Source: a virus. Taken from it: 64,000 nt of DNA. Under the pieces are notes generated by a model. That model searched no databases. It saw only the letters and a list, made by a program, of their open reading frames with translations, and was not told the DNA's origin. Of this stretch, positions 51,003 to 64,000 are shown in pieces. Position 1 is the stretch's first letter, and each line of letters opens with the position of its first letter. Made by a program: the position numbers and the translations under genes. The stretch spans positions 119,534 to 183,533 of the IMG/VR virus record IMGVR_UViG_3300038415_000014. One strand, given 5' to 3'.

Positions 51003-51016
51003 GGGGGTCTTAAAGG

Positions 51017-51050
51017 TCGAAGCACCCAGGCGGCCACCGAGGTGCTTCGA
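51017..51050 (-). terminator. Strong hairpin closing the upstream transcript
   Basis: 10-bp stem TCGAAGCACC/GGTGCTTCGA followed by CCTTT. Confidence 0.65.
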
Positions 51051-51053
51051 TAA

Positions 51054-51231: not shown

Positions 51232-51262
51232 ACAGGGTCACGAGTACCCTGCCTGAGCCCAG

Positions 51263-51772: not shown

Positions 51773-51834
51773 CTGAATCTCCGATTTGGATTGGCGTGCT
51801 ACCACGGAAGTCCTTCCCGTGTCAACACTTTCAG

Positions 51835-51906
51835 TACTGGGCATGGGACTCGAACCCATCTAATCTAGCTCGTCGTGCTAGCGCCATCCCTGATGACAAG
51901 CCCAGC
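51835..51906 (-). tRNA. Atypical tRNA-Val(GAC)-like
   Basis: All four stems pair; anticodon loop ACGACGA (A32, C33); no CCA. Confidence 0.6.
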
Positions 51907-51951
51907 GTGGAACTTGACCCTTGGGTCAAGTTGGCTAATTTAGTCAAGTTG

Positions 51952-52032
51952 TAGGCCATGGAGGAATCGAACCCCTACGCCACCTGTTAATAAGACAGGC
52001 GCCAGTACACCACCCGGCTTAGGCCACGGCCC
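51952..52032 (-). tRNA. Atypical tRNA-Ile(UAU)
   Basis: CCTGT-CTTATTA-ACAGG anticodon arm; 7-nt linker before a 5-bp D stem; U37. Confidence 0.6.
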
Positions 52033-52095
52033 ATAATAAGGCGTGATCCAAGCCATCGTATCTTGACCTTTGACATAAAAGCCTACCTTTGCTGT

Positions 52096-52797
52096 CTATG
52101 GGATTGTGTGAGCGTTATGCCCCCACGCCCCACGACCTCTTGTTTGAATTCCAAGCTTAGAGCATCTTTTCTTAATAGCCTTATCGGACACTCCGAATCG
52201 AGAGGCTAAAGTAGATAGCGGGTTCATTTCAACGAGGGCCTGCAGGTCTTCGTTGGTGGGCCATTCAATTTTGGTAACCCTTACTTTTGCTGACTTGACT
52301 ACCTTTCGGCGATTTCTTGAACGAAAAGTATCAGTTTGAGAGTGGCAGTTTGGGCAAAGGAATCTTAGATTTACTGGTACATCATTGGAACCATCACCGT
52401 CTATATGGTCAACCTCTAATACAATAGGGAAACCCATCCATATTGGTTCAGAGCCACACTTACTGCACACATAAGGAACTCCGATAGAGGTCAAAGCTCT
52501 GCGCAGGCGATGTGCTGGAAGCCTTGTACCATCCTGGTGCTTCACTAAAACTTTCTCTGGGGGTAGAGAAAAACTAGGGATAGGTTTTTTGACCCCCTTT
52601 GACCAACCAGATCCGATGAAGTGCTTAGTGTCGATTCCAAAGTACCTGATACGAGATCGTATGTAAGTGGCCATACCCCCTGATCTTGTTGGGGAGCCTA
52701 TCTTGTCAAGAACCTCTCTAACGGTACGACTCCCCTCAACAGCTCGAAGGAGCACTTCTTTGGTGTACTTTACTTCAGTAGCCATACTTATACCCAT
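52096..52797 (-). CDS. HNH homing endonuclease inside the tRNA array
   Basis: CSKC...LEVDHIDGDGSND...NLRFLCPNCHSQT, with flanking HTH segments. Confidence 0.85.
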   Translation of the reverse strand: MGISMATEVKYTKEVLLRAVEGSRTVREVLDKIGSPTRSGGMATYIRSRIRYFGIDTKHFIGSGWSKGVKKPIPSFSLPPEKVLVKHQDGTRLPAHRLRRALTSIGVPYVCSKCGSEPIWMGFPIVLEVDHIDGDGSNDVPVNLRFLCPNCHSQTDTFRSRNRRKVVKSAKVRVTKIEWPTNEDLQALVEMNPLSTLASRFGVSDKAIKKRCSKLGIQTRGRGAWGHNAHTIP

Positions 52798-52829
52798 CAA
52801 TAACACCTTTAGTTGGGTACGGCAACAGT

Positions 52830-52917
52830 TGGTGCACGAGAGAGGAATTGAACCTCCACGGGAATTACCCCACGGGTTTCTAAAACCCGCGCGTCTGCCT
52901 AGTTCCGCCACTCGTGC
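52830..52917 (-). tRNA. tRNA-Leu(UAG)
   Basis: Cloverleaf, long variable arm, CCA. Confidence 0.95.
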
Positions 52918-52919
52918 GT

Positions 52920-52997
52920 TGGTACCCCCGATACGAATTGAACGTACAACCTCCTGCTTGTAAGGCAGGCGCTTCTACCGGATTGAGCTACAGGGGC
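52920..52997 (-). tRNA. tRNA-Val(UAC)
   Basis: CCTGC-CTTACAA-GCAGG, CCA. Confidence 0.93.
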
Positions 52998-53003
52998 ATG
53001 AAT

Positions 53004-53079
53004 TGGTGCTGATGGCGGGACTCGAACCCACAACCTACGGCTTATGAAACCGCCGCGCTACCTGTTGCGCCACATCAGC
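53004..53079 (-). tRNA. tRNA with CAU anticodon (elongator Met or Ile2)
   Basis: GCGGT-TTCATAA-GCCGT, G1-C72, CCA. Confidence 0.9.
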
Positions 53080-53081
53080 AT

Positions 53082-53156
53082 TGGTACCCCTGAAAGGACT
53101 CGAACCTCCAACATTCGGCTTCGAAGGCCGCTACTCTTCCATTGAGTTACAGGGGC
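53082..53156 (-). tRNA. tRNA-Arg(UCG)
   Basis: Loop CTTCGAA, CCA. Confidence 0.93.
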
Positions 53157-53160
53157 ATAA

Positions 53161-53514
53161 CTAACGACGACTTCTACAGTTGACACTTCCGCCGGCATTG
53201 ACACTTCCGCCAATGTCATCAGCGTGAAGACTTCCACCAGCGGTAGCTGAACCCTGGATGTTTCCAGCATGAACACTCCCTCCAGCGGTCACGTTACCCG
53301 CTACGTCTCCACAGGTAACAGACCCTCTGTCAGCTCGAACGTTGATGAGGGGTCCTTCCCACTTGATCTCTACAACGCCTTGGAGCCCACCCTCTATGGT
53401 CACCCCATCAATAGAGACAACCCCGTCAACTATCGAAAGGTTGGACCCAGATGGGCTTTCTATGCGTTTACCGTTGATTATGATTACAGGCATGGACTGA
53501 ACTACACCAATCAT
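53161..53514 (-). CDS. Small beta-solenoid-like protein
   Basis: Repeats GNVTAGGSV/GSATAGGSL/GSVNAGGSV. Confidence 0.6.
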   Translation of the reverse strand: MIGVVQSMPVIIINGKRIESPSGSNLSIVDGVVSIDGVTIEGGLQGVVEIKWEGPLINVRADRGSVTCGDVAGNVTAGGSVHAGNIQGSATAGGSLHADDIGGSVNAGGSVNCRSRR

Positions 53515-53515
53515 G

Positions 53516-53643
53516 AGCCCCCGGAGGGATTCGAACCCTCAACACACGGCTTCGAGGTAAACTACAGAGGGGTTGTGAATCCTCCGGATGAACTCAGTCC
53601 CTCACCTTTGAATCCGGAACTCTATCCGTTGAGTTACGGGGGC
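53516..53643 (-). tRNA. tRNA-Arg-like gene with a 55-nt anticodon-loop insertion
   Basis: Intact acceptor, D (GGATA, A20) and T arms. Removing 55 nt restores a 73-nt cloverleaf with anticodon CCG or UCG. Confidence 0.75.
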
Positions 53644-53647
53644 ATAG

Positions 53648-53720
53648 CGATCCTGGTGAGACTTGAACTCACAATCTCCAGCTTCGGAGGCTGTTGCTCT
53701 ATCCATTAAGCTACAGGACC
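53648..53720 (-). tRNA. tRNA-Arg(CCG)
   Basis: Loop CTCCGAA, A20. Confidence 0.93.
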
Positions 53721-53722
53721 AT

Positions 53723-53798
53723 TGGCGTCCGCGAGAGGACTCGAACCTCCATCCTCCAGCTTCGCAAGCTGTTGCTCCTCCAATCGAGCTGCGCGGAC
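53723..53798 (-). tRNA. tRNA-Arg(GCG)
   Basis: Loop TTGCGAA, CCA. Confidence 0.9.
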
Positions 53799-53838
53799 AT
53801 TGGCTGGCTCAACCCACCCAAGGGTCGAGCCAGAGGAA

Positions 53839-54357
53839 TCAGAAACGATACAGTTGAGCCTCGAAGGCTACCGACTCCCGAGTGAGGTTCTCTTCGTCTT
53901 CACCAATCACGGCCACACTGGAGTCAGGGATCAGCTTTGATATGTGAACCACCGCATTCCAGATGACCCCTTGGATGTTTTGCTTCAAGTTCTCAATCTT
54001 GGTCTCAGCATCGAAGATATCCCTACAATGCTTACGGATATCACAGAAAGTGCTTGGATTCACCCAGATGTGGTCAACCTTTCTGTCCCGGCGCTCTACC
54101 GTATGAAAAGCATCGGCGATGATATCGGGTGTGATGAAGGTCCCTGTCGTCAAGGAACGCTCGAAGCAATGAAGGGCTTCCTTCAAGTGCTCGAACCCCT
54201 TCTCCTGCATCGGGTTTCGGTGAGTCTTCTCACTCACCTTGGTAGCCAGCAAGAGGAAGTCACTTCTCATCCGATTGATGACTTCGATCTGACTTTCTGT
54301 GAACAATCTCTTAGGTCCGAATGTAGCTTGAATGTCTAAAGGCATGCTAACCTCCAA
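53839..54357 (-). CDS. Two-part hypothetical protein (helical hairpin plus capsid-like segment)
   Basis: 172-aa ORF between tRNAs; see findings. Confidence 0.6.
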   Translation of the reverse strand: MEVSMPLDIQATFGPKRLFTESQIEVINRMRSDFLLLATKVSEKTHRNPMQEKGFEHLKEALHCFERSLTTGTFITPDIIADAFHTVERRDRKVDHIWVNPSTFCDIRKHCRDIFDAETKIENLKQNIQGVIWNAVVHISKLIPDSSVAVIGEDEENLTRESVAFEAQLYRF

Positions 54358-54376
54358 GACCCAAGTACACCGTAAT

Positions 54377-54452
54377 TGGTACCCCTGGCAGGATTCGAAC
54401 CTGCAACAAACGGTTTAGAAAACCGCTAGTCTATCCGTTGACCTACAGGGGC
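54377..54452 (-). tRNA. tRNA-Arg(UCU)
   Basis: Loop TTTCTAA, CCA. Confidence 0.95.
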
Positions 54453-54456
54453 AAAA

Positions 54457-55023
54457 CTAAACGGGCAGAGTTCCTATGTTGCCAGCCATCAGGGCTGCGT
54501 AGTCGAACTTCTTCCCGAGGCAATCGTGGATGCTGACAGTCCCCTTCCCGTATTCGAGGAACTTGTCGTTGTAGATGAGAATGCTTCGGGGAATCTTGAT
54601 CTCCCCCTTGACGAAGGAAACCCCCGTGGTGGTCATTCGATAGAACCCGGCGCGGTTGCTCCCATCCTTGCGCTTCTCTTCGGGCTTCTCCTCGATGACC
54701 CTCCAATATCTGAGCTTGGCCCAATCCCCACCGCGAACCGCTGGACCGATCGTTGCCATGCTTGAGAGATACTCGGGGACGTGGAGCCACCCTTCCCCAT
54801 CATTGTGCAAGAAATGTCGGTAGATCAAGATGGCTACGTAAGCCATGGACCCCGTGATCTCGCGCTCGTAGACCTTGACAAGCTGGCTACAACACGGACA
54901 GTAAACCCCGGAGCCACGAGACAGGCGCTTCATTTTGCCCTGAAGCTCGGCGATAACTTCCCGGGCTTCGGGCTCCAAGGTCATCTTGATGGGCTTCTTC
55001 GCTGACATACCAAGCGAATACAC
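54457..55023 (-). CDS. Hypothetical protein (CPCC, winged-helix-like)
   Basis: 188-aa ORF. Confidence 0.6.
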   Translation of the reverse strand: MYSLGMSAKKPIKMTLEPEAREVIAELQGKMKRLSRGSGVYCPCCSQLVKVYEREITGSMAYVAILIYRHFLHNDGEGWLHVPEYLSSMATIGPAVRGGDWAKLRYWRVIEEKPEEKRKDGSNRAGFYRMTTTGVSFVKGEIKIPRSILIYNDKFLEYGKGTVSIHDCLGKKFDYAALMAGNIGTLPV

Positions 55024-55034
55024 CGAAAAACTGA

Positions 55035-55136
55035 GGGAGACAAGAGAAGCCGAAAGATGCCTCCGTAAGGCGATCCCCCATAGTGGCGGGGGATTTCAGA
55101 TTTGAACTAAATGTACTTCCGAGCAAGCATTCTCCC
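55035..55136 (-). ncRNA. YrlA-like Y RNA 1 (permuted tRNA domain)
   Basis: GGGAGA-ATGC...CTTG-TCTCCC closing helix; T arm (TTCAAAT), closed acceptor hairpin ATCCCCC/GGGGGAT, D-like arm. Confidence 0.75.
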
Positions 55137-55212
55137 TGGAGCGGACGAAGGGAATCGAACCCTCAACATTCAGCTTGGAAGGCTGACACTCTACCAATTG
55201 AGCTACGTCCGC
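55137..55212 (-). tRNA. tRNA-Gly(UCC)
   Basis: Loop CTTCCAA, CCA. Confidence 0.95.
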
Positions 55213-55219
55213 AAAACGT

Positions 55220-55297
55220 TGGAGTCGAGGGTGGGATTTGAACCCACGAATCGTCGGTTTTGCAAACCGCGCCCTTGAACCACTTGGGTACCTCGAC
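55220..55297 (-). tRNA. tRNA-Cys(GCA)
   Basis: Loop TTGCAAA, U73, CCA. Confidence 0.95.
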
Positions 55298-55321
55298 ATA
55301 ACTGAGGAACCCGATAACCTG

Positions 55322-55966
55322 CTACAGGCCGAGTTCCGTATCTACAAAGTCTGGGTAGCTAGCATGAAGCTTCTTGGCCAGCTTAGACCAAGTTTCAGCT
55401 TCAGCTCGATAGCGACCCTTGTCTGCATCACTAGTCTCTTGCTTCACATCGTTGATAGTGAAGTGAACCTTACCTGTTATGAACTTGTAGCAAAGCTCAA
55501 GCTTCATAACAGCCCATTTCCCGAGAAGCTTGAAGTCATACTTCGGGAAGTCATCCGCGAACTCTAGACACTTATCAGCAGTATCATAGGGGGTCAACGT
55601 TGCGAAGTGTACTTGGTCCTTTGAGTCTAGATACAAGCACCCTGCTACTCCAGCATAGGTCGTTGCCTTCGGCTTGTTCCAGACTTCACGATCCGCAATC
55701 TTTGGGTTCGTAGTCTGACTTACCATACGGTAGCCCTTCTTAGGGACATACTCGACCCAATAACGGATCTTGCATCGAAGACGGAAGCCGTAGGGATAGT
55801 CGTCGACTACGTAAGCATTGCTCATCGAGTCATGCCCGTAGAGTGGTTTCTGGACGCTTGCCGTCTTATGTGTCTTGATACTCGCCTCGATGAAACGAGA
55901 TGCAACATTTTGGGCCGTTAGGGCGTCTTGGAAGGCAACCAGCTCGCGAGTCATACTCTGGACCAT
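55322..55966 (-). CDS. Hypothetical protein with N-terminal NVASRF/KTAS motifs
   Basis: 214-aa ORF. Confidence 0.65.
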   Translation of the reverse strand: MVQSMTRELVAFQDALTAQNVASRFIEASIKTHKTASVQKPLYGHDSMSNAYVVDDYPYGFRLRCKIRYWVEYVPKKGYRMVSQTTNPKIADREVWNKPKATTYAGVAGCLYLDSKDQVHFATLTPYDTADKCLEFADDFPKYDFKLLGKWAVMKLELCYKFITGKVHFTINDVKQETSDADKGRYRAEAETWSKLAKKLHASYPDFVDTELGL

Positions 55967-55982
55967 AGCATAAGAGGTTTAG

Positions 55983-56055
55983 AGCGGGTAACCAGGATCG
56001 AACTGGCCGATTCCAACTTGGCAAGCTGGTTCCTCACCATTGAGGAGATACCCGC
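55983..56055 (-). tRNA. tRNA-Gly(GCC)
   Basis: Loop TTGCCAA. Confidence 0.92.
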
Positions 56056-56059
56056 ATAG

Positions 56060-56094
56060 AAACAGAGAAGCCCGACTCTCGCCGGGCTCTCAAG
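56060..56094 (-). terminator. Terminator-like hairpin
   Basis: GCCCGGC-GAGA-GTCGGGC followed by TTCTCTGTTT. Confidence 0.55.
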
Positions 56095-56174
56095 GGGGCG
56101 GCCGTTCCCGGCAACCCTCCACCACTACTCAATGATGGCCCACTGAGTAGGTGACCACCCTAGCATGAAGATTT

Positions 56175-56306
56175 CCCGAAGACAAGAGATCGTGAAGACG
56201 ACTAGGGCCTCCCATTAGCTGACGACCAGCTCGCGCCAATCGACGGGATTCGAACCCGCATTCCTTACTTTCGAGGTAAATGTAGTCCCCAACAGCATTC
56301 TTCGGG
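56175..56306 (-). ncRNA. YrlA-like Y RNA 2 (permuted tRNA domain plus anticodon-like hairpin)
   Basis: CCCGAAGA/TCTTCGGG closing helix with ATGC/CTTG; GACTA/TAGTC; T arm GCGGG-TTCGAAT-CCCGT; 8-bp acceptor hairpin with GCGA loop; D loop AATGG. Confidence 0.85.
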
Positions 56307-56309
56307 CGG

Positions 56310-56382
<73 letters not shown>

Positions 56383-56383
56383 A

Positions 56384-56692
56384 TTATTTGTTGTAGTACT
56401 CTGGATTAGATAACTCGAAACGGAGCAGAATCTTCCTAGAAGAATCAAAGACAGCCGTGATGTAACCAAGCTCTGAGTCAGGCATTACCCCCACAATCCC
56501 GTTAAGGATCCCAAGGAGTCCAACCACCGGAACCTTACCCTCAGTGTTGACTTGAACCGAAGAGTGGTCTGTGAGAGCTTGATTTGTAGGGGTCCTGAAC
56601 TCGACCAGATTATACATTGCTGATGGATCAAGAGCCAAGTACTCATTGAGGCTATTGATGACTCGATTGGCTAGAGCTTCCTCAGTTGACAT
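56384..56692 (-). CDS. Hypothetical protein
   Basis: Start placed at MSTEEALANR; the track start lies in a tRNA. Confidence 0.65.
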   Translation of the reverse strand: MSTEEALANRVINSLNEYLALDPSAMYNLVEFRTPTNQALTDHSSVQVNTEGKVPVVGLLGILNGIVGVMPDSELGYITAVFDSSRKILLRFELSNPEYYNK

Positions 56693-56713
56693 GACTCTCA
56701 AATACACCAAGAG

Positions 56714-56789
56714 TGGAGCGGGAGAAGGGAATCGAACCCTCGACAACGTGCTTGGGAAGCACGGACTCTACCAGCTGAGCTACTCCCGC
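56714..56789 (-). tRNA. tRNA-Gly(CCC)
   Basis: Loop TTCCCAA, CCA. Confidence 0.95.
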
Positions 56790-56799
56790 ATTTGATTAG

Positions 56800-56871
56800 A
56801 GCTGGTGATGGGACTTGAACCCGCAACATCCTGCTTACAAAACAGGTGCTCTACCATTGAGCTACACCAGC
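56800..56871 (-). tRNA. tRNA-Thr(UGU)
   Basis: Loop TTTGTAA. Confidence 0.93.
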
Positions 56872-56878
56872 GAAGTTG

Positions 56879-56951
56879 TGGAGCTGAGGAGAGTTGAACT
56901 CCCGATCTTTGCAGTGCGAGTGCAACGCTTTCCCAACTAAGCTACAGCCCC
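56879..56951 (-). tRNA. tRNA-Ala(CGC)
   Basis: Loop CTCGCAC, G3.U70. Confidence 0.93.
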
Positions 56952-56955
56952 ATAG

Positions 56956-57027
56956 TGGAACCAGACGGAGTCGAACCGACGTACTTAGATTGCAGATCTA
57001 AGGTCCTCCCAATTAGACGATGGTCCC
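56956..57027 (-). tRNA. tRNA-Ala(UGC) with C33
   Basis: TTAGA-TCTGCAA-TCTAA, G3.U70. Confidence 0.85.
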
Positions 57028-57591
57028 ATAGTTACCTACCCATTTGTGTTCTGGTACACCTCTAGTTTTCAATGTGTGACACCAAACACATAAGACTTGC
57101 CAGTTTCTGATGCTATTGTTCTTTCGGTCAGAATCGATGTGGTGAACATCTAGCATCCTCGGGTCCTCCGAGTAGCCACAACTACCGCACCTAGCCCCGT
57201 AGATACGAAACGCTTGTTCTCGATAGTTGGTACCCTCCCCATTACCAGTACCATAATGTGGCGGGTGAAGTTCTATCAAACCTCCAATCCGTTGAGCTGT
57301 ATCTTTACAAGATCTAGTGCAGAAGTGTAGGTCTTTCCTTGACCTTTTTAGCTTACCAGGCGTAGTCTCAAATGGCTTACCGCACCAATTACAGACAACC
57401 ATAATTCTAGCTCGCGAACCCAATCGGGCACAGGAGCGACAACAGTACTTCTTGCTAACATGCTTTGGAGCATAGAAGGGAGTATTGCAAGACGAGATTG
57501 AACAGTATCGGAGCACCAAGACTCGCATTGACCCGTCGTAGGTGTCCGAGACGATCTCTAACAGAGGATTGGGTGTCATACAGACTTGCAT
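57013..57591 (-). CDS. HNH homing endonuclease with Zn-finger repeats
   Basis: CGSC...LDVHHIDSDRKNN...NWQVLCVWCH; stop lies inside tRNA-Ala(UGC). Confidence 0.85.
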   Translation of the reverse strand: MQVCMTPNPLLEIVSDTYDGSMRVLVLRYCSISSCNTPFYAPKHVSKKYCCRSCARLGSRARIMVVCNWCGKPFETTPGKLKRSRKDLHFCTRSCKDTAQRIGGLIELHPPHYGTGNGEGTNYREQAFRIYGARCGSCGYSEDPRMLDVHHIDSDRKNNSIRNWQVLCVWCHTLKTRGVPEHKWVGNYGTIV

Positions 57592-57631
57592 ACACCATGC
57601 GAGTCACGAACGCTCCTCAAGTATCAGTACA

Positions 57632-57778
57632 CTAATTGTGCTTATCAGGACGCTGACAATGAGTATCATGATGGAGATACTCGCCCTGATAACACCAGGA
57701 GTTGCAGTACCCACAGACTTGAACGTGGGGTTCCTTCTTGGACTCAACCTTAGGACCCTTCACGATTTCTGCTTCCAT
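57632..57778 (-). CDS. Small Cys/His-rich protein
   Basis: MEAEIV...CGYC...HHDTHC; SD GAGG. Confidence 0.45.
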   Translation of the reverse strand: MEAEIVKGPKVESKKEPHVQVCGYCNSWCYQGEYLHHDTHCQRPDKHN

Positions 57779-57795
57779 AGAAACCTCGTTCTTAG

Positions 57796-57867
57796 TGGAG
57801 CTGAAGGGGATCGAACCCTCAACCTCTTGTCTGCCAGACAAACGCTCTCCCATTGAGCTACAGCCCC
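57796..57867 (-). tRNA. tRNA-Ala(GGC)
   Basis: Loop CTGGCAG, G3.U70. Confidence 0.93.
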
Positions 57868-57868
57868 A

Positions 57869-58369
57869 TTACCTACGAATCTTAGCCATGATCTTCTTGA
57901 GCATACGCATCATGTGGAGTCCAGTCATCTCAGGGTCGTCGATTACTTCCCTGAGCTCCACAATCTTGGAGAGGTTAACCCCACCTCTGAGATCACGAGG
58001 TAGGTAACTGATATCGAGTTTCAACCTGCCACCGTGACAACCTATGTGCATTGCAACAGAGTCAACTGGTTGAGGTGGAGCAAAAAAGTAGAACAGATCA
58101 GTCGAGGTCTGACTCGAGTTCATCGAGTACCGGTCCCCAAGAGACCTCCTGAGGATCGAAAGGAAACTAGGAAGAAGAGCGCTGATTGAATCTCTACCTG
58201 TATCCAGTATCTCTGCATCTATTGCAGGATTACTCTGGAATGAAGTCTTGGTTGCGTACCGATCAAATACCCACTGGGGTATCTCCGGTCGATACCCAGA
58301 CATGGCAACCTTGAAGCCCCATCGAGCAGCAACTCTTCTTACTAGGCGGTCCATCCTAGTAAGTAACAC
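57869..58369 (-). CDS. Hypothetical protein with N-terminal RVAARW motif
   Basis: 166-aa ORF. Confidence 0.6.
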   Translation of the reverse strand: MLLTRMDRLVRRVAARWGFKVAMSGYRPEIPQWVFDRYATKTSFQSNPAIDAEILDTGRDSISALLPSFLSILRRSLGDRYSMNSSQTSTDLFYFFAPPQPVDSVAMHIGCHGGRLKLDISYLPRDLRGGVNLSKIVELREVIDDPEMTGLHMMRMLKKIMAKIRR

Positions 58370-58382
58370 ATAGGTAAGTTAG

Positions 58383-58453
58383 TTGGGATACCAGGACTTG
58401 AACCTGGATAGACGGATTCAGAGTCCGCTGCCCTACCATTAGACGATATCCCA
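58383..58453 (-). tRNA. tRNA-Gln(CUG)
   Basis: U1-A72, loop CTCTGAA. Confidence 0.93.
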
Positions 58454-58460
58454 ATGAGGC

Positions 58461-58652
58461 TCAACGAGTATGCTGAACCTTCTCAAACAAGTCAAGTTGA
58501 AGTGTACCCAACGGTTCAGGGGCTAGAACAATCTCTTGCACAGGCTCACCTTGAACCGCGCGCAATGAGTCAGCCCAACATTTGTAGCTACAGTACTCAG
58601 TACCTCGATAGACAACTGGATGTTGCCCGCACCAAGCACAGGGGTGTTTCAT
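58461..58652 (-). CDS. Small Zn-finger protein
   Basis: CAWC...YCSYKC. Confidence 0.5.
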   Translation of the reverse strand: MKHPCAWCGQHPVVYRGTEYCSYKCWADSLRAVQGEPVQEIVLAPEPLGTLQLDLFEKVQHTR

Positions 58653-58662
58653 GGTTACTTTG

Positions 58663-58733
58663 CAGGGTCACTCCGACTTGAACGGAGATTAACGGTTTTG
58701 GAGACCGTCGTCCTACCATTGAACGATGACCCT
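58663..58733 (-). tRNA. tRNA-Trp(CCA)
   Basis: Loop CTCCAAA, G73. Confidence 0.93.
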
Positions 58734-58737
58734 ATAA

Positions 58738-59292
58738 TTACACCAAGGAAGCGTAGCGTGACGCCACTTTCTTGGTAAGAAACTCATCTTCAGTGCAAGG
58801 TGACTGGCGATCAGCCACATCAACCTTGTGAAGCTTGAACTCGATATCAGCCTCTTCGACAGTGGCTCGGTAGGGCCGAACCATATTGATCATGTCTTCC
58901 CACAAGTCAACCCGAGCGATGCTAGGATGCTCTCCAAGTATCCTTCGGATCTGTTCGACCTTGAAGGCTTGTGTGTCTGTACGGTCCGACAAGTGAACCT
59001 CGTCGAACTCAAGACCCCTCTGCCTCAGGAGCTCGTGGACCCTGCTGGTGAACCCCTCCGCGGGACGTCCAGTGAGAAGGACGACGTAGCTGTCACCCTC
59101 ACTCAGGGCCTTCCGAGCTGCATTGACTGTGGACCCGATCCACCAGTCCTCAGGCGGCTCTTTAGGAAGCATTGGTGGGTTCAACGAGACTGGGTCAAAC
59201 CACCAACCATCCTTATCCTTCCACCAGTCCGGCGGGGTAGGGCTGTTGAAGAGCGTCCCGTCGAAGTCAAGGATGTAAAGCCTGCGGAGCAT
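58738..59292 (-). CDS. HAD-family phosphatase (resembles Swiss Army Knife RNA-repair HAD)
   Basis: DFDGTLFNSP, LLTGR, FK, WED motifs. Confidence 0.7.
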   Translation of the reverse strand: MLRRLYILDFDGTLFNSPTPPDWWKDKDGWWFDPVSLNPPMLPKEPPEDWWIGSTVNAARKALSEGDSYVVLLTGRPAEGFTSRVHELLRQRGLEFDEVHLSDRTDTQAFKVEQIRRILGEHPSIARVDLWEDMINMVRPYRATVEEADIEFKLHKVDVADRQSPCTEDEFLTKKVASRYASLV

Positions 59293-59366
59293 ACCCAGGT
59301 CCTAGCATTAAAAGATTGGTGCTTCTGCCAGTAACAACTAGTATGAATCTCACAGAATCAACGAAG

Positions 59367-59445
59367 TGGCGCAGCTAGCGGGATTTGAACCCGCGATCTA
59401 CTCCGTGACAGGGAGCTGGGGACGGCCGGACTCCCCTATAGCTGC
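59367..59445 (-). tRNA. tRNA-Asp(GUC)
   Basis: Loop CTGTCAC, G73, CCA. Confidence 0.93.
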
Positions 59446-59452
59446 ATAAGTT

Positions 59453-59581
59453 GCGGAGACAAGAAGTCGCAAAGACATTGTTGTCGGCTGCTCTGCCAAC
59501 TGAGCTACGTTCGCCGAAGCGAACGGTGGGACTCGAACCCACGACCAGCTGAATGATTGTAGTCCTTACTGCATTCTCCGC
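59453..59581 (-). ncRNA. YrlA-like Y RNA 3 (permuted tRNA domain)
   Basis: GCGGAGA/TCTCCGC closing helix with ATGC/CTTG; canonical variable loop TGGTC, T arm GTGGG-TTCGAGT-CCCAC, acceptor hairpin CGTTCGC-TTCG-GCGAACG, TA linker, D arm GCTC-AGTTGGCA-GAGC. Confidence 0.9.
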
Positions 59582-59583
59582 GG

Positions 59584-59656
59584 TACTCCAGACTGGATTC
59601 GAACCAGTGACCCCAGGTTTAGGAAACCTGTATTCTATCCGCTGAACTACTGGAGC
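59584..59656 (-). tRNA. tRNA-Arg(CCU)
   Basis: Loop TTCCTAA, A20. Confidence 0.95.
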
Positions 59657-60000
59657 GTAACAGGCCAAATCCCCTCACCCTTGGTGAATGACTTGGCTAA
59701 GTTCTCTCGACCTTGGGCTGTCTTCAGATACTCACCGGTTAGATTGCGAACATCCTCCGGGACACCCTCGGCCCAAACTGATTCCTTCAAGTTGACAAGG
59801 CCAATCTCCCAAAACTCTTGAGGCTTGGAATGGGTACCCCGTTTGAAATTGATGCGGTCCCACAACTTGAGATACCATGGCCTAGGTTGTTCTAGATCGG
59901 GTGCGGTACAGTACCCTATAGTACGAGTATAAGGATCATCACAGCAAAGGATCTCGCATCCTGGGTTACTTCTCACATACTGCTTGATAGCTCCAACCAT
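59647..60000 (-). CDS. Hypothetical protein, paralogue of 60034..60351
   Basis: AIKQYVRSNP and EYLKTAQGRENLA; stop lies inside tRNA-Arg(CCU). Confidence 0.6.
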   Translation of the reverse strand: MVGAIKQYVRSNPGCEILCCDDPYTRTIGYCTAPDLEQPRPWYLKLWDRINFKRGTHSKPQEFWEIGLVNLKESVWAEGVPEDVRNLTGEYLKTAQGRENLAKSFTKGEGIWPVTLQ

Positions 60001-60033
60001 CTAGAAGAAGTTTTCGTACCGCATACTCTGGTA

Positions 60034-60351
60034 CTACACCAAGCTACTCAACTCTGGTGATCGCATACCGTTGGTGAGGAGACGCGCCATCAATTGACGC
60101 CCGAGGGCCGATTGAAAGTACTCGGTCAAGATTTCACAAGCTCTCTCTGGGAGATTCTTGACTGACACACTGAAGCTCTTGCACTTGATCCGCCAAGTTG
60201 GTCGATTGAGCAAGAACGGATCGATGTCCTTTATGGTGAACCCATAGAGCAAGTCCTCCGGAACATCAGCGAAGACTATCACGCGCCATGGGTGCTCTTT
60301 CACATAGTACAGGATGGCGATTATCATCTCACGGATGTTTTCGAAATCCAT
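60034..60351 (-). CDS. Hypothetical protein, paralogue of 59647..60000
   Basis: AILYYVKEHP and EYFQSALGRQLMA. Confidence 0.6.
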   Translation of the reverse strand: MDFENIREMIIAILYYVKEHPWRVIVFADVPEDLLYGFTIKDIDPFLLNRPTWRIKCKSFSVSVKNLPERACEILTEYFQSALGRQLMARLLTNGMRSPELSSLV

Positions 60352-60524
60352 CCCCGTGATACACCGAGATCTCTGAGCTGCTCTCTCTCAGAGCACCTGC
60401 TTGCTAACTCTTGTTGGGTGAGTATCCTGTGGTTTCGTCGACCATCGGTCTTACGGAGCATGCACATCCCGCAACAACCCTTGATACCCGCTCGGCGCCG
60501 ATGCCGTCTTTTGAAGTTTGCCAT
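60324..60524 (-). CDS. Small basic Cys-containing protein
   Basis: SD AAGGAGG; MANFKRRHRRR...CCGMC. Confidence 0.6.
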   Translation of the reverse strand: MANFKRRHRRRAGIKGCCGMCMLRKTDGRRNHRILTQQELASRCSEREQLRDLGVSRGWISKTSVR

Positions 60525-60587
60525 GGTTCCTCCTTGCCGCCGTCAGCGGCTCGAACGTGAACCAAGGAATTCTTCGAGATGACACTT

Positions 60588-60884
60588 TCAGACCTTATCG
60601 ACAACCAAGGACCTGCGGAACCTGGGGTCCCCTTCGAGCTTGAACCTCTTGGACGTGTCCTGCCCGGGTGGGAGCTTCATCTCCCACCCCTCTGTCGCCC
60701 AACTATAGTGGTTGACCGTGACCCTGTCTCCGTTGACAGACTTCACCTCTAGCTGAACCCCTCGACGAATCTCAGACCACCAGTCACCGCTCTTCGTCCA
60801 GATCTTGAGGACATCCCCTTTGGACAAGGTTGATGCGACTACGAAGCGAGCAGACACTCTGGAGATAATAGTCAGGTCTTCCAC
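60588..60884 (-). CDS. Hypothetical SH3-like protein with N-terminal RVSARF motif
   Basis: Start placed at GTG (MEDLTIISRVSARF); the track start lies in tRNA-His. Confidence 0.55.
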   Translation of the reverse strand: MEDLTIISRVSARFVVASTLSKGDVLKIWTKSGDWWSEIRRGVQLEVKSVNGDRVTVNHYSWATEGWEMKLPPGQDTSKRFKLEGDPRFRRSLVVDKV

Positions 60885-60913
60885 ATCAAGCAAGCCACAT
60901 AAGTGAAAATTTG

Positions 60914-60986
60914 GGTGACCGACGGGACTCGAACCCGCACATATACGATTCACAGTCGTACGCCTTACCTTTTGGCTACGGTCACC
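60914..60986 (-). tRNA. tRNA-His(GUG)
   Basis: G-1:C73, loop CTGTGAA. Confidence 0.95.
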
Positions 60987-61003
60987 ATAATGCTACTCTC
61001 CTG

Positions 61004-62023
61004 TTACCAAATGGGGAACAGTAGAAGGTTTCGTGGGTTACTGAACAACGGGCTAGGAATAGGAGCCCCAGGAGTCCACAAATGAGTACTACGCGAGTAG
61101 GTCAGAGGGATAACAGTATTTGATGCAAAGTCAGCAGCTAATGCGATATCACCAATGCCATCATTAGCCACAGCGACCTCTCCGATGTTTCCGTACCCAG
61201 TAAACACTTGACCTGCGCTGAAGGTTTCTGTCCCCGGATCATAGTTGATGGTGCGGATAATCCCACCCTCACCCTCACCATTACCACCAATTGCAGATAA
61301 ACCATCAGGTCTCCATGTCACACCATTTATGGGAACTGGTATCGAAACACGATTCCAAACGGATCCGTTCCAGATGAGACCATCTGAAGCTACTGCTGCA
61401 TTATTACTTCCAATGATCGCAGTTGAACCATCTACTGATATACCGATCGCGAAGAATCGCTCACCTGAAGTATTCAATCCAATCGGACTTCCAGATGGAG
61501 CCCAAATCCCTGTGATGGGATCACGCGCGAGCGGATAGGCAGTGTTCCCGAATTTTCCAACTGCTAGAGCACGACTACCATCCCGGGTCATGCGGACCGA
61601 ATCGAGATCAGTTGATCCAACACTGACACCAGTCTTCGTCTCCCATAGTCCCAATGAGAGGTTGAAGTCGTACGGTGTTACCAAGGACGAAAAGTCACCA
61701 CCGGAAAGCGAATGCAACCCATCAGCAGACATAGTAACAGCTGCTGCTGCCCCACCTCCTGAATTAGGAACCAGAGTTCCAGCGGTCCATGTAATACCGT
61801 TGTAGTCAAGAGGTACTATGCCACTGCCTGGATAATTAGCGAATATAAGGCGGGATCCTTGCATATTCGACGCAATGGAGTTTAGGTTGTTAGCACTCGG
61901 ACCCGCAACGATGTTCTCTACAACGGTCCACACACCTGAACTCGAATACAAAAGGTGTGTAATATTATTGGACGAATAGTTCGACACCAGGGCATGCATC
62001 GAGAAGAAGAACTTGCGGCTCAT
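61004..62023 (-). CDS. Beta-propeller repeat protein
   Basis: About seven blades (SADG, TRDG, SVDG, RPDG); start placed at MSRKFFF. Confidence 0.7.
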   Translation of the reverse strand: MSRKFFFSMHALVSNYSSNNITHLLYSSSGVWTVVENIVAGPSANNLNSIASNMQGSRLIFANYPGSGIVPLDYNGITWTAGTLVPNSGGGAAAAVTMSADGLHSLSGGDFSSLVTPYDFNLSLGLWETKTGVSVGSTDLDSVRMTRDGSRALAVGKFGNTAYPLARDPITGIWAPSGSPIGLNTSGERFFAIGISVDGSTAIIGSNNAAVASDGLIWNGSVWNRVSIPVPINGVTWRPDGLSAIGGNGEGEGGIIRTINYDPGTETFSAGQVFTGYGNIGEVAVANDGIGDIALAADFASNTVIPLTYSRSTHLWTPGAPIPSPLFSNPRNLLLFPIW

Positions 62024-62062
62024 ACATAGCCGCCATCCATAAGTGAAATTTGACACTAGTTG

Positions 62063-62145
62063 CGGAAGAGAGCAGAGTCGAACTGCGGTCCTTGCGGGCA
62101 TCCAGGTTTCCAAGCTGGCGGGCGACCACTCACCCCATCCCTTCC
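62063..62145 (-). tRNA. tRNA-Ser(GGA)
   Basis: Loop TTGGAAA, long variable arm. Confidence 0.9.
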
Positions 62146-62154
62146 AAATAGACC

Positions 62155-62236
62155 TGCTCACCCGACGGGCCTAAACTTATTTTCACAAGGTCTACCCTCC
62201 CGGACTGTGCTTCCGAGACTGAGTAGCGGGCGAACA
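62155..62236 (-). ncRNA. Unclassified ~80-nt structured spacer RNA candidate
   Basis: 10-bp closing stem TGTTCGCCCG/CGGGTGAGCA with an internal 12-bp hairpin. Confidence 0.4.
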
Positions 62237-62239
62237 CGG

Positions 62240-62324
62240 CGGAAGGTAGAGGATTCGAACCCCGATGACTTTCACCACCTAGGAAATTAGCAATCTCCCT
62301 CCAGTCCGAACTGGTATACCTTCC
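62240..62324 (-). tRNA. tRNA-Ser(GCU)
   Basis: Loop TTGCTAA, long variable arm. Confidence 0.92.
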
Positions 62325-62334
62325 ATAAGTACTC

Positions 62335-62420
62335 TGGCGGAAGACGGCTGAGTCGAACAGCTTACCCTAAGGTACCCCGGGGTTCGAATCCGGTGGGCGA
62401 CCGCTCACCCTACGCCTTCC
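62335..62420 (-). tRNA. tRNA-Ser(CGA)
   Basis: Loop TTCGAAC, long variable arm, CCA. Confidence 0.9.
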
Positions 62421-63196
62421 ATAGATTCCTCTAGATCTTCGATGAAGTTCTGGAGATCATCTTGGATATACTCAAAGATCGTCTTGGAAGCACCGAGACG
62501 TTTATTGAGACGCTTACCTACATCAGTATCAAAGATCCAAGAAACTAATTCGCCTCCATCAGTTGGTATTGAGTCTTCCCACTGGTCCCAATCCTTTGGT
62601 AAGTTATGAACCCAGTCTTCAAAGTAGTCGAAGCTACCCTCTTCGGTGCGACTAAATGGGAGGTCAGGAATAACTGAGATTATGCGGGTGATTGCTTGCT
62701 TCGCGGTATGGAAGTCGAATGCTTTCAGCCACTCAAGGTTAGCAGGGGTTGGACCCTCTTCAGGCATCTCTGAGAGCTCATCGATCAACTTATCTCGCCC
62801 CCATCCATTCAAAGCCCTGGTTGCAGGTGAGGACTCAATATCCTCAAGTACAGCATCCTCGTCGAATGTCTTACCTCGCCGAGTCAACTCCCTCAGCAGA
62901 GGGGCGACCGCCTTCTTAATCTCAGGCCCCAGTACTAGGGTCTCTGACAAGTCTGTCAGTTCCTTGAGTTTAGGTGTGAACTGACGATTCAGACTGGACA
63001 ATCTTTCGTCGATGGCCTCTACATACCTAGACTTATCAAGGATGGGTTTCGAATCCAAAGCTTGACTCAATGTGCTCAAGTCTTGAACGAGAGGGACCAA
63101 ATCCCAACTCATAAGTGTATGCCATGCCAACTGGAGACGCCTAGCGTCCATAGCCATCTTGTAACGAGCCGCCACTCTGCTGATAATCGAGGACAT
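62405..63196 (-). CDS. Acidic helical hypothetical protein with N-terminal RVAARY motif
   Basis: 263 aa; stop lies inside tRNA-Ser(CGA). Confidence 0.65.
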   Translation of the reverse strand: MSSIISRVAARYKMAMDARRLQLAWHTLMSWDLVPLVQDLSTLSQALDSKPILDKSRYVEAIDERLSSLNRQFTPKLKELTDLSETLVLGPEIKKAVAPLLRELTRRGKTFDEDAVLEDIESSPATRALNGWGRDKLIDELSEMPEEGPTPANLEWLKAFDFHTAKQAITRIISVIPDLPFSRTEEGSFDYFEDWVHNLPKDWDQWEDSIPTDGGELVSWIFDTDVGKRLNKRLGASKTIFEYIQDDLQNFIEDLEESMEGVG

Positions 63197-63225
63197 CGAC
63201 TAGGAGTGAATGACCAAAAGAATAG

Positions 63226-63299
63226 TCGGGGTGACACGATTTGAACGTGCAACAACTCGGACCCAAACCGAGTCCTCTACCAAATTGAGGTACACCCCG
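63226..63299 (-). tRNA. tRNA-Pro(UGG)
   Basis: C1-G72, loop TTTGGGT. Confidence 0.93.
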
Positions 63300-63302
63300 A
63301 TG

Positions 63303-63360
63303 AAGTCGAGACAAGGATCGAAAAGATGCAAGCCTTTCGGCTCCGGTGCATTCTCGACTT
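63303..63360 (-). ncRNA. Minimal Y-RNA-like element 4 (no tRNA domain)
   Basis: AAGTCGAGA/TCTCGACTT 9-bp closing stem with ATGC/CTTG; a single AGCC-GAAA-GGCT hairpin. Confidence 0.7.
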
Positions 63361-63363
63361 TAG

Positions 63364-63446
63364 TACACGAGAGAGGACTCGAACCTCCACGGGATTTCTC
63401 CCAGTAGCACCTCAAGCTACCGCGGTTGCCTTTACGCCACTCGTGC
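63364..63446 (-). tRNA. tRNA-Leu(GAG)
   Basis: Loop TTGAGGT, long variable arm. Confidence 0.93.
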
Positions 63447-63480
63447 GTGAGTAATTCACTTCTACACTAAGGTAAGTATC

Positions 63481-63792
63481 ATGGATCGGACACTTCAAGA
63501 CTTCGAGGACAGCGTCATCGCTTGCAACCTAGTAGCTAGGGTTGCTGAGCAGAGTACTGAAAGCGTTGTACTAGCCGGTGCTGATGACAGCAGGCAGCTT
63601 ATAGATCGCCTCGAAAGGTTAGTATCCTCAGTCGAGGATAAGACCCAAGAGCTACGAACCGCCTTTAACAAGTACCGACATGACCCGAGCAAGATGGCTC
63701 CTCAGTTGAGCAACATGATTTCGGCTGCATCAGAGATAAGCTCGAACCTACGAGTCATCAACCGTACCCTAGACGGTGTCAAGAAGGCTTAA
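63481..63792 (+). CDS. Helical hypothetical protein; the only plausible plus-strand gene
   Basis: 103 aa with amphipathic helices; fills a gap with no minus-strand feature. Confidence 0.55.
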   Translation: MDRTLQDFEDSVIACNLVARVAEQSTESVVLAGADDSRQLIDRLERLVSSVEDKTQELRTAFNKYRHDPSKMAPQLSNMISAASEISSNLRVINRTLDGVKKA

Positions 63793-63803
63793 AAGTCCGG
63801 TGG

Positions 63804-63879
63804 TCGCCAGTGACAAGGGAACGTGCAGACGTCTATTGTTTTTGCGATAATGTAGTCTTACACAGCATTCAACTGGCGA
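63804..63879 (-). ncRNA. Minimal Y-RNA-like element 5 (no tRNA domain)
   Basis: TCGCCAGT/ACTGGCGA stem, GAATGCTG, AGACTACA, GTCT, CTTGTC. Confidence 0.75.
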
Positions 63880-63931
63880 AAACCGGAACTTAGAAACCTG
63901 TACACCGTCTTGCTTAGAGTTGCAAGGAAAA

Positions 63932-64000
63932 GTTTGACCCTGACAAGGGAACGGCAAAGAATGGGTGTGGCCTACGCATTGATGTTCCCAGGGTTCCTTG
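63932..64000 (-). ncRNA. 3' half of a probable sixth Y-RNA-like element (cut by the window edge)
   Basis: Shares CGTTCCCTTGTCA (13 nt) with element 5. Confidence 0.5.

What the first reader, a model, noticed from the sequence alone, without database searches (positions are those of the whole stretch)
63303..63879. Minimal Y-like RNAs with the putative Ro-binding helix but no tRNA module
Seen: elements 63303-63360 (58 nt) and 63804-63879 (76 nt) keep GAAUGC/CUUGUC and 8-9-bp closing stems, but a single small hairpin or A-rich loop replaces the T/AS/D domain. A model that relies on the tRNA domain would probably miss them. Inference: they could be stripped-down competitors that occupy Ro60 without recruiting PNPase or tRNA-handling enzymes, making the family modular (constant handle, variable effector).
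Basis: partly seen in the sequence, partly recalled or inferred. Interest (0 to 1): 0.78.

Follow-up and report, generated by a model that had tools for sequence, protein, structure and literature searches.

The report
Two tRNA-less phage Y RNA copies
Among the tRNA genes of a giant uncultured peat phage lie two small RNA genes that keep the "handle" of Y RNAs (partners of the Ro60 protein) but lack the usual tRNA-shaped part: one is a conserved hairpin gene, the other a recently truncated copy, and both fit a kind of Y RNA already described.

Summary
Both elements lie on the minus strand and carry GAAUGC and CUUGUC closed by a stem. Neither has a tRNA-like domain. Rfam's YrlA model misses both. 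A handle-only covariance model built here finds them together with the three full-length paralogues, and nothing else.

The two have different histories. E (core 63804-63879, full hairpin 63797-63886) is minimal in all five related phage lineages I could fetch. Its helices show compensatory changes, its 24-nt loop is nearly invariant, and the downstream flank has decayed.

D (63303-63360) comes from a recent internal deletion of about 95 nt. Its orthologues are 139-141 nt and have a T arm. Only this strain, and one independent peat run, carry the short form.

The contig ends before any Ro60 gene. The syntenic relative has one about 17 kb further along the same strand, and other phages place handle-only RNAs beside their Ro60 gene.

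Y RNAs without a tRNA module are already known: YrlB, Yrn2, and Yrl1 and Yrl2 of Thermus phage phiLo. This is therefore a new member of a known kind. The competitor role is untested. This scan has noted minimal Y hairpins beside phage Ro60 genes on other DNA.

The parts
63797..63886 (-). Element E, full hairpin: a minimal Y-like RNA. It has an extended 13-14 bp outer stem, a GAAUGC/CUUGUC internal loop, an 8-bp inner stem and a 24-nt loop.
   Evidence: RNAalifold and single-sequence folds give the same structure. MFE is -27.6 kcal/mol, z = -3.14, 0 of 200 shuffles fold as well. Orthologues occur in 5 lineages with 3 double-compensatory pairs.
63804..63879 (-).
   Evidence: Handle-only models R2 and R3 score it at 100.3 and 66.8 bits. 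It was part of their training set.
63865..63870 (-). E: GAAUGC, the 5' strand of the handle's internal loop.
   Evidence: 100% conserved in the 5 orthologues. It matches the Rfam YrlA consensus.
63812..63817 (-). E: CUUGUC, the 3' strand of the handle.
   Evidence: 100% conserved in the 5 orthologues. It matches the Rfam YrlA consensus.
63831..63854 (-). E: 24-nt A-rich loop in place of the tRNA-like module. It keeps the junction letters (UACAU at the 5' end, AAUAGAC at the 3' end) seen in full-length members.
   Evidence: Mean identity among orthologues is 90.6%, against 42.9% in the downstream flank. An independent run shows an A-run length variant at 63838.
63303..63360 (-). Element D: a truncated YrlA-like gene. 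It retains the outer stem, GAAUGC, one GNRA hairpin, the orphan 3' strand of the lost inner stem, and CUUGUC.
   Evidence: Pairwise alignments to the 139-141-nt orthologues show a clean internal deletion of about 95 nt. R3 scores it at 23.9 bits, E = 1e-4, and it was not in the training set. The same short form is present in run X2.
63330..63343 (-). D: the retained hairpin with a GAAA loop. It is the last arm of the full-length orthologue.
   Evidence: Identical in the L257 and G001 orthologues. Folds of the orthologues place it next to the 3' strand of the inner stem.
63363..63446 (-). tRNA-Leu(GAG), ending 2-3 nt before D.
   Evidence: ARAGORN and Rfam.
63225..63299 (-). tRNA-Pro(UGG), starting 3-4 nt after D.
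   Evidence: ARAGORN and Rfam.
59453..59581 (-). Full-length paralogue C: the same handle plus a tRNA-like module.
   Evidence: Rfam YrlA scores 55.5 bits, below the gathering score of 69. R3 scores 45.3 bits.
56175..56306 (-). Full-length paralogue B.
   Evidence: R3 scores 48.1 bits and it was not in the training set. Motifs and stem were found.
55033..55138 (-). Full-length paralogue A.
   Evidence: R3 scores 33.8 bits and it was not in the training set. Motifs and stem were found.
63932..64000 (-). The 3' end of a sixth, larger family member, cut off by the end of the contig.
   Evidence: Complete copies of 205-254 nt occur in the relatives L257, L251, L260 and G001.

Best explanation
Both elements belong to this phage clade's family of YrlA-type Y RNAs, the small RNAs that bind the ring protein Ro60 (Rsr) through a terminal stem, internal loop and stem. 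They have different status.

E is a maintained gene for a Y RNA of the non-tRNA-like class, like YrlB, Yrn2 or the phiLo Yrl RNAs. It has a long closing stem, the GAAUGC/CUUGUC loop, an inner stem, the CUAC junction, and a conserved 24-nt loop where the tRNA-like body would sit. Most likely it loads onto the phage's Ro60. I infer that this Ro60 gene lies just beyond the end of the contig. Lacking the tRNA-like body, E would form a Ro60 particle with different partners, or simply gate the ring.

D is a full-length family member that lost its module, the 5' strand of its inner stem and its CUAC junction in one recent deletion of about 95 nt. It is probably still transcribed, and released from the tRNA precursor between tRNA-Leu and tRNA-Pro. 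It is more likely a decaying copy than a selected competitor.

Shown here: the anatomy, the family membership by sequence and structure, the conservation of E, the deletion origin of D, and the Ro60 genes in relatives. Inferred: Ro60 binding, biogenesis by tRNA processing enzymes, and any effect on PNPase.
For: (1) The handle is the YrlA handle. Rfam's consensus reads ...gaAUGC...CUAc ... AcUuGuc..., and paralogue C aligns to it end to end.

(2) The handle-only model R3 finds exactly the five elements in 16 kb searched on both strands without filters. A, B and D were not in the training set. Scores run from 66.8 to 23.9 bits, and the next hit scores 9.5.

(3) Across 14 family members, 96.5% of cells are paired. 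Fourteen of 18 pairs show double changes, no shuffle in 500 reaches this, and slid controls give 32-52%. The alignment was fitted to the model.

(4) E orthologues are minimal in L257, L251, L260 and G001. Runs X2-X5 show no insertion longer than 1 nt in E. There are 3 double-compensatory pairs and one paired insertion. The two hexamers are 100% conserved and the loop 90.6%, against 42.9% in the flank. G-U pairs fit the minus strand only.

(5) The D orthologues in L257 and G001 are 139-141 nt and have a T arm. The window has a clean deletion. Relatives in runs X3-X5 carry about 95 extra nt exactly at the GC of GAAUGC. Run X2, from an independent study, has the short form with no gaps.

(6) Ro60 linkage. 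G001 encodes a 470-aa protein with vWA_Ro60 (57.7 bits) and TROVE (24.7 bits) about 17 kb beyond the point where our contig stops, on the same strand. In G002 the Ro60 stop codon is followed directly by handle-only RNAs, and there is no YrlA hit. G005 has three tandem minimal copies about 3 kb from its Ro60 gene.

(7) From the literature. Every characterised bacterium has a second Y RNA that is a plain hairpin (PMC4201824). phiLo Ro60 binds hairpin Yrl RNAs, and a trimmed stem-bulge-stem mimic, with a KD of about 17 nM (PMC12135203).
Against: - No Ro60 (TROVE) gene lies on this 183-kb contig. CheckV estimates it at 38% complete.
- The published core motif CGAA (GNCGAAN0-1G) is not present. E reads UGAA and D reads AGAA at that place, as do all paralogues of this clade.
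- Even the full-length paralogue C stays below Rfam's gathering score (55.5 against 69 bits).
- R3 found nothing in a Ro60-encoding mycobacteriophage, so this handle variant may be specific to the clade, or the prefilter may have failed.
- D's lowest-energy fold pairs AUGCA of the handle with a downstream UGCAU, which would bury the motif.
Confidence: 0.6

Rival explanations
1. One reading: both D and E are selected, stripped-down competitors that occupy Ro60 and keep it from forming PNPase- or tRNA-enzyme-linked particles.
For: Both keep the outer helix and the two hexamers. E is under purifying selection. Y RNA binding is proposed to gate access to the Ro60 cavity (PMC4201824, introduction). 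After its deletion D gained a C that creates a 5-bp substitute helix.
Against: D's short form is seen only in this strain lineage (the window and run X2), and all diverged relatives are full length. D lacks the inner stem and CUAC junction that all 14 aligned members share. E's loop is nearly invariant, which suggests a function of its own rather than an empty placeholder. No binding or expression data exist.
Confidence: 0.15
2. E is a structural or processing element of the tRNA-array precursor, such as an RNase III or RNase E target or a stabilising hairpin. It only shares ancestry with Y RNAs and no longer binds Ro60.
For: It has a long, nearly perfect 13-14 bp stem. It sits between other non-coding RNAs in a minus-strand array. 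No Ro60 gene lies on the contig.
Against: The hexamers and the CUAC junction, which are not needed for a mere hairpin, are 100% conserved, while the stem sequence drifts with compensation. The same architecture recurs directly beside Ro60 genes in unrelated phages. There is no U tract that would make it a terminator.
Confidence: 0.12
3. Both elements are inert relics of module-loss deletions. E looks conserved only because the sampled phages are close relatives.
For: D shows that such deletions happen. Only five lineages were sampled, and four of them are 85-93% identical to the window around E.
Against: Within the same alignment the flank directly downstream of E has fallen to 42.9% identity, while E's motifs stay at 100% and its loop at 90.6%. 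G001 is only 77% identical overall and carries 3 double-compensatory changes.
Confidence: 0.08

Closest known systems
Non-tRNA-like bacterial Y RNAs: YrlB of Salmonella Typhimurium and M. smegmatis, and Yrn2 of Deinococcus radiodurans (Chen et al. 2014, PMC4201824)
   Same: They are second Y RNAs encoded alongside a tRNA-like one. Their 5' and 3' ends pair into the Ro60-binding stem. The body is a plain hairpin rather than a full tRNA mimic. In M. smegmatis YrlA and YrlB are cut from one precursor.
   Different: Those RNAs were shown to be bound by Rsr, and E and D were not. [quoted passage not shown] They lie within 2 kb of rsr, whereas here the nearest Ro60 gene (in the relative G001) is about 17 kb away and the RNAs sit in a phage tRNA array. 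I did not have their sequences and could not test homology.
Yrl1 and Yrl2 of Thermus phage phiLo, with phage Ro60 (NAR 2025, PMC12135203)
   Same: They are phage-encoded hairpin Y-like RNAs without a tRNA domain, with a stem-bulge-stem core. A trimmed mimic of the core alone binds phage Ro60 with a KD of about 17 nM, so an RNA that is only a handle can be a ligand.
   Different: The phiLo RNAs carry the CGAA motif and lie just upstream of the Ro60 gene. E and D read UGAA and AGAA, and they belong to a family of at least six members scattered among tRNA genes.
YrlA (Rfam RF02553), including the mycobacteriophage copies
   Same: The terminal helix matches letter for letter at GAAUGC, CUAC and CUUGUC. 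Paralogues A-C of this window have the tRNA-like body.
   Different: D and E lack the T, D and acceptor-like arms that define YrlA. RF02553 gives no hit on them at E <= 10.
Metazoan Y RNAs (Y1, Y3, Y4, Y5)
   Same: They have a constant Ro60-binding stem formed by the two ends, joined to variable internal loops that recruit different partners. This is the 'constant handle, variable effector' idea, and I cite it from established knowledge and PMC4201824.
   Different: The handle sequence differs (GGUCCGA with a bulged helix). The genes are transcribed by RNA polymerase III, and none has a tRNA-like module.

Membership tests
YrlA (Rfam RF02553) | Terminal stem, internal loop and stem, with the conserved letters gaAUGC on the 5' strand and cUuGuc on the 3' strand | tested here: met
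   E has both hexamers exactly, plus both helices and the CUAC junction. D has both hexamers and the outer helix only.
YrlA (Rfam RF02553) | tRNA-like domain (T arm with GGUUCGA-type loop, D arm, acceptor-like and anticodon-like stems) | tested here: not met
   RF02553 gives no hit on either element at E <= 10. ARAGORN finds nothing there. The inner regions are a 24-nt loop in E and one GNRA hairpin in D.
YrlA (Rfam RF02553) | Score at or above the gathering threshold (69 bits) | tested here: not met
   D and E give no hit. Even the full-length paralogue C reaches only 55.5 bits.
Y RNAs in general (bacterial and phage) | GNCGAAN0-1G, or the CGAA core, on the 5' strand (PMC4201824; PMC12135203) | tested here: not met
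   The C is replaced. E reads UGAAUG, and D and paralogues A-C read AGAAUG. Members in G002 and G003 do read CGAAUG. This is a clade-specific variant.
Y RNAs in general (bacterial and phage) | Physical association with Ro60 (Rsr) | not testable with these tools
   It needs a gel shift or immunoprecipitation. The complex tool takes proteins only.
Y RNAs in general (bacterial and phage) | Encoded near a Ro60 gene, on the same strand | tested here: inconclusive
   There is no TROVE gene on this incomplete contig. The syntenic relative G001 has Ro60 about 17 kb upstream on the same strand. G002 and G005 place handle-only RNAs 0-3 kb from Ro60.
Non-tRNA-like Y RNAs (YrlB, Yrn2, phiLo Yrl) | The Ro60 handle closes a simple hairpin, and a tRNA-like Y RNA is present in the same genome | tested here: met
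   This is E's structure by RNAalifold with covariation. Paralogues A-C carry tRNA-like modules.
Non-tRNA-like Y RNAs (YrlB, Yrn2, phiLo Yrl) | Sequence homology to a named member | not tested
Intrinsic terminator | G+C-rich hairpin followed by a U tract | tested here: not met
   No conserved U run follows E on either strand. The scan flags D's inner hairpin weakly (5 bp), but the tract is absent in the orthologues.

The most novel reading that the evidence does not exclude
Huge phages of this clade run a Ro60 toolkit with one constant handle and interchangeable heads: tRNA mimics, a 23S rRNA helix-69-to-71 look-alike, and bare loops. Head loss recurs. E would be an old, fixed, headless form whose invariant 24-nt loop and CUAC junction are themselves a functional surface, acting as a gate or a distinct partner site. 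D would be the same step caught just after it happened. The ratio of headed to headless RNAs would then tune what the phage Ro60 does to host or phage RNA during infection.
Probability: 0.3. Interest if true: 0.65.

Novelty: new member of a known kind. Interest (0 to 1): 0.42.

Why it matters
Ro60 and Y RNA particles are studied in RNA quality control and autoimmunity, but what the different Y RNAs of one organism do remains poorly understood. This phage clade offers a natural series on one handle: full tRNA mimics, a conserved headless form (E), a freshly beheaded form (D), and a form carrying a piece of 23S rRNA sequence. That series could be used directly in binding and competition assays with the clade's own Ro60. 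It also shows that the Rfam model misses the headless class, so counts of phage Y RNAs are underestimates. In itself, however, a Y RNA without a tRNA-like domain is not new.

Tried and rejected
- Single-protein searches of IMG/VR with the two neighbouring ORFs (62405-63196 minus, 63481-63792 plus) found no relatives. Pfam gives these ORFs no significant family.
- Blastn of 62000-64000 against GenBank phages hit only tRNA-Pro.
- Exact 15-mer scans of IMG/VR with E's loop and D's hairpin returned only G001 plus chance hits.
- MAFFT alone misaligned the 3' strands of the inner stems. Model R1, built with the long stem, placed short stems in the wrong columns. I therefore rebuilt the model as R2 and then R3.
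- R3 found no candidate in Mycobacterium phage Yucca, which does encode Ro60. The first-look stage returned no candidates, so this shows nothing either way.
- RF02553 does not hit the full-length D orthologue in L257 at E <= 1.
- Expression: no RNA holder is listed among the public runs, so I cannot say whether the RNAs are expressed.
- Blastn of the sixth element against all E. coli genomes gave nothing. The 23S match appeared only in a direct comparison with rrlH.
- Terminator reading rejected: there is no conserved U tract.
- Plus-strand reading rejected: the motif orientation and the G-U pairs fit the minus strand only.
- The review PMC10870794 was not held.

Full report
CONTEXT. The window is the last 64 kb of a 183,533-base IMG/VR phage contig that CheckV rates 38% complete. 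From about 50.5 to 63.4 kb it holds a minus-strand array of 27 tRNA genes and a tmRNA gene. The run search agrees that peat and pond metagenomes hold it.

THE OBSERVATION.
- D (63303-63360) has a 7-9 bp closing stem, GAAUGC, one hairpin with a GAAA loop, a single-stranded stretch, and CUUGUC.
- E (63804-63879) has an 8-bp closing stem with a bulged U, GAAUGC, an 8-bp inner stem with a 1-nt bulge, a 24-nt A-rich loop, and CUUGUC.

The motif pair with a closing stem of at least 5 bp occurs five times in the window. All five are on the minus strand within the tRNA array: A at 55033-55138, B at 56175-56306, C at 59453-59581, plus D and E. Markov simulations of the window give 0.06. Elsewhere on the 183-kb contig no motif pair has a stem longer than 3 bp.

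The hexamers are not arbitrary. Rfam's YrlA consensus reads ...gaAUGC..., CUAc and ...cUuGuc... in its terminal helix, and paralogue C aligns to that model end to end at 55.5 bits, below the gathering score of 69.

A MODEL OF THE HANDLE ALONE.
- I started from five E orthologues (alignment A7, model R2) and collected 14 family members from six phage records into a structure-guided alignment (A8). From that I built R3, with 68 positions and 16 pairs.
- Searching 48000-64000 on both strands without filters, R3 returns exactly five elements: E at 66.8 bits, B at 48.1, C at 45.3, A at 33.8 and D at 23.9 (E = 1e-4). The next hit scores 9.5 bits. A, B and D were not in the training set.
- On A8, 96.5% of cells pair and 14 of 18 pairs show changes on both sides. 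None of 500 shuffles reaches the observed values, and slid controls give 32-52% pairing. The alignment was fitted to the model, which favours pairing, but the margin is large.
- The conserved handle extends beyond the two hexamers. All members also share GAC-UACA at the top of the inner stem and an AAUGA-like stretch on the return strand.

E IS A CONSERVED GENE. A pattern scan of IMG/VR, followed by a scan of JGI metagenome contigs, produced orthologues in four further lineages: L257, L251, L260 and G001. G001 is IMGVR_UViG_3300027693_000001, and L258 and L259 are further copies of the same lineage. In each the element sits in the same place in a syntenic tRNA array.
- All the orthologues are minimal. 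In runs X2-X5 the contigs that cover E show no insertion longer than 1 nt.
- The alignment shows that the closing stem really runs over 63797-63886, 13-14 bp.
- RNAalifold predicts the same structure as I drew by hand. The 90-nt hairpin folds at -27.6 kcal/mol with z = -3.14.
- Three outer-stem pairs change on both sides in G001, and a G-C pair is inserted on both strands of the inner stem in L260 and G001. Overall, 91% of cells pair, against 28-55% when the partners are slid.
- Several pairs are G-U, which would be A-C mismatches on the plus strand. That fixes the strand as minus.
- Mean identity by region: both hexamers 100%, loop 90.6%, inner stem 78-93%, outer stem 75-79%, and the flank directly downstream 42.9%.
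- The loop retains the junction letters of full-length members. E therefore looks like an old loss of the tRNA-like body that was then kept under selection.

D IS A FRESH DELETION. Between tRNA-Leu(GAG) and tRNA-Pro(UGG), L257 and G001 carry a 139-141-nt element with the same closing stem and hexamers. It also has a proper inner stem, the UUAC junction, a T arm and further arms.
- Pairwise alignment shows that the window lacks about 95 nt, running from the C of GAAUGC to just before the last hairpin, with 1-2 nt of microhomology at the junction.
- The window also lacks a separate stretch of about 100 nt. In G001 that stretch is a tRNA-Pro(GGG) gene lying between tRNA-Leu and D.
- Contigs of three pond and virome runs (X3-X5, about 90% identical to the window) carry about 95 extra letters exactly at 63348/63349. 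They already lack the tRNA-Pro(GGG) stretch.
- A 717-nt contig from run X2, an independent peat study, matches 62800-63427 with 3 differences and no gap. The short D is therefore real DNA and not an assembly error, but I found it only in the window's own strain lineage.
- D lost the 5' strand of the inner stem and the junction that every other member keeps. Its lowest-energy fold pairs part of GAAUGC with a downstream UGCAU.
- I therefore read D as a truncated copy of uncertain activity. Flush between two tRNAs (3-4 nt spacers), it would still be released from the precursor by tRNA processing. That is an inference, and it matches the single-precursor origin of M. smegmatis YrlA and YrlB (PMC4201824).

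IS THERE A Ro60? There is none on this contig, and the contig stops about 110 nt beyond E, in the middle of the array.
- In G001 the array continues with some 18 more tRNA genes and more Y-like elements. About 17 kb further on the same strand lies a 470-aa ORF that matches vWA_Ro60 (57.7 bits) and TROVE (24.7 bits), both above Pfam's cut-offs.
- Four of five other phage records reached through the handle motif encode TROVE proteins.
- In G002 the Ro60 ORF (L127:572-2122, minus strand) runs straight into a handle-only RNA (487-574). Two more follow, and RF02553 finds nothing on that record.
- In G005, three tandem minimal copies follow a YrlA-like RNA and a tmRNA gene about 3 kb from the Ro60 gene.
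- This association across lineages is the main support for Ro60 binding. It is not a binding test.

COMPARISON WITH WHAT IS KNOWN.
- Chen et al. [quoted passage not shown] They suggest that these allow Ro60 to form complexes with other components. They also report YrlA-like RNAs in 22 phages.
- The 2025 phiLo study (PMC12135203) shows a phage Ro60 binding two hairpin Yrl RNAs, and a trimmed stem-bulge-stem mimic, at about 17 nM.
- Headless Y RNAs and the handle-plus-variable-part idea are therefore established. What is specific here is a clade variant of the handle (U or A in place of the C of CGAA), E's invariant loop, the placement in a huge-phage tRNA array, and a dated example of head loss in D.
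- This scan has also noted minimal Y hairpins beside phage Ro60 genes on other DNA (e1-5401748, e1-5826831). I used those notes as leads only.

VERDICT. This is a new member of a known kind, of moderate interest. The most interesting thing met on the way lies mostly outside the window. The sixth family member, of which only the 3' end (63932-64000) is on the contig, carries in all four relatives a 20-22-nt stretch that matches E. coli 23S rRNA 1915-1936, exactly in two of them.

Noticed in passing
window 63932-64000 (minus strand, cut by the contig end); complete copies at L257:3122-3373, L251:421-644, L260:1687-1940 and L056:7776-7980 (all minus strand): The sixth family member is large (205-254 nt between the hexamers). 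Right after the handle it carries a 20-22-nt stretch that matches E. coli 23S rRNA positions 1915-1936, the helix 69-71 region. The match is exact in L257 and L251, with 1-2 changes in G001 and L260. It also has two repeats of a GGAUGCAAGUCC hairpin motif. This would be a Y RNA head that imitates part of 23S rRNA.
   Followed up: partly
window 63360-63363, compared with L257:2135-2245 and L132:853-951: The window, and the relatives in runs X3-X5, lack a stretch of about 100 nt between tRNA-Leu(GAG) and D. In G001 that stretch is a 99-nt tRNA-Pro(GGG) gene. The D region therefore suffered two separate tRNA-sized deletions.
   Followed up: partly
L127 (G002:C1:1-3097): A phage Ro60 gene (572-2122, minus strand) is followed at once by three handle-only RNAs (487-574, 329-399, 183-267) and a tRNA-Asn gene. 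The 24-kb fragment has no YrlA-model hit.
   Followed up: partly
G003:C1:22090-22147 (L036:1236-1293, minus strand): A complete 54.8-kb phage with terminal repeats carries one very small handle-only RNA (about 58 nt, 13-nt loop) but has no TROVE gene. It may use a host Ro60.
   Followed up: no
G005:C1:41378-42359 (L087): About 2-3 kb downstream of a Ro60 gene lie a roughly 170-nt handle element, a YrlA-like RNA (39.5 bits), a tmRNA gene and three tandem minimal handle RNAs. In two of the three the 3' hexamer reads CUCAUC or UUCAUC instead of CUUGUC.
   Followed up: partly
L084:3004-3219 (G004, a 359-kb contig): A family handle encloses an insert of about 180 nt with no tRNA-like features, inside a tRNA array of a different huge phage that encodes a TROVE protein.
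   Followed up: no
window 63909-63926 (minus strand): A small hairpin (5-bp CUUGC/GCAAG stem, 8-nt loop) lies in the spacer between the sixth element and E. The stem is invariant and the loop variable across the five lineages. Its role is unknown.
   Followed up: no
window 63549-63797: This stretch, most of the plus-strand ORF 63481-63792, is replaced by about 230 unrelated letters in the relatives. Positions 63447-63549, upstream of tRNA-Leu, are 82-93% conserved. The ORF has no Pfam family.
   Followed up: partly
window 63838: Run X2 carries one extra T here, which is one more A in the A-run of E's loop. This is a strain-level length variant at the only variable spot of the loop.
   Followed up: no
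L132:5454-5521 and L132:2797-2871 (G001, minus strand): G001 has two more minimal, handle-only family members in the part of the array that lies beyond the end of our contig.
   Followed up: partly
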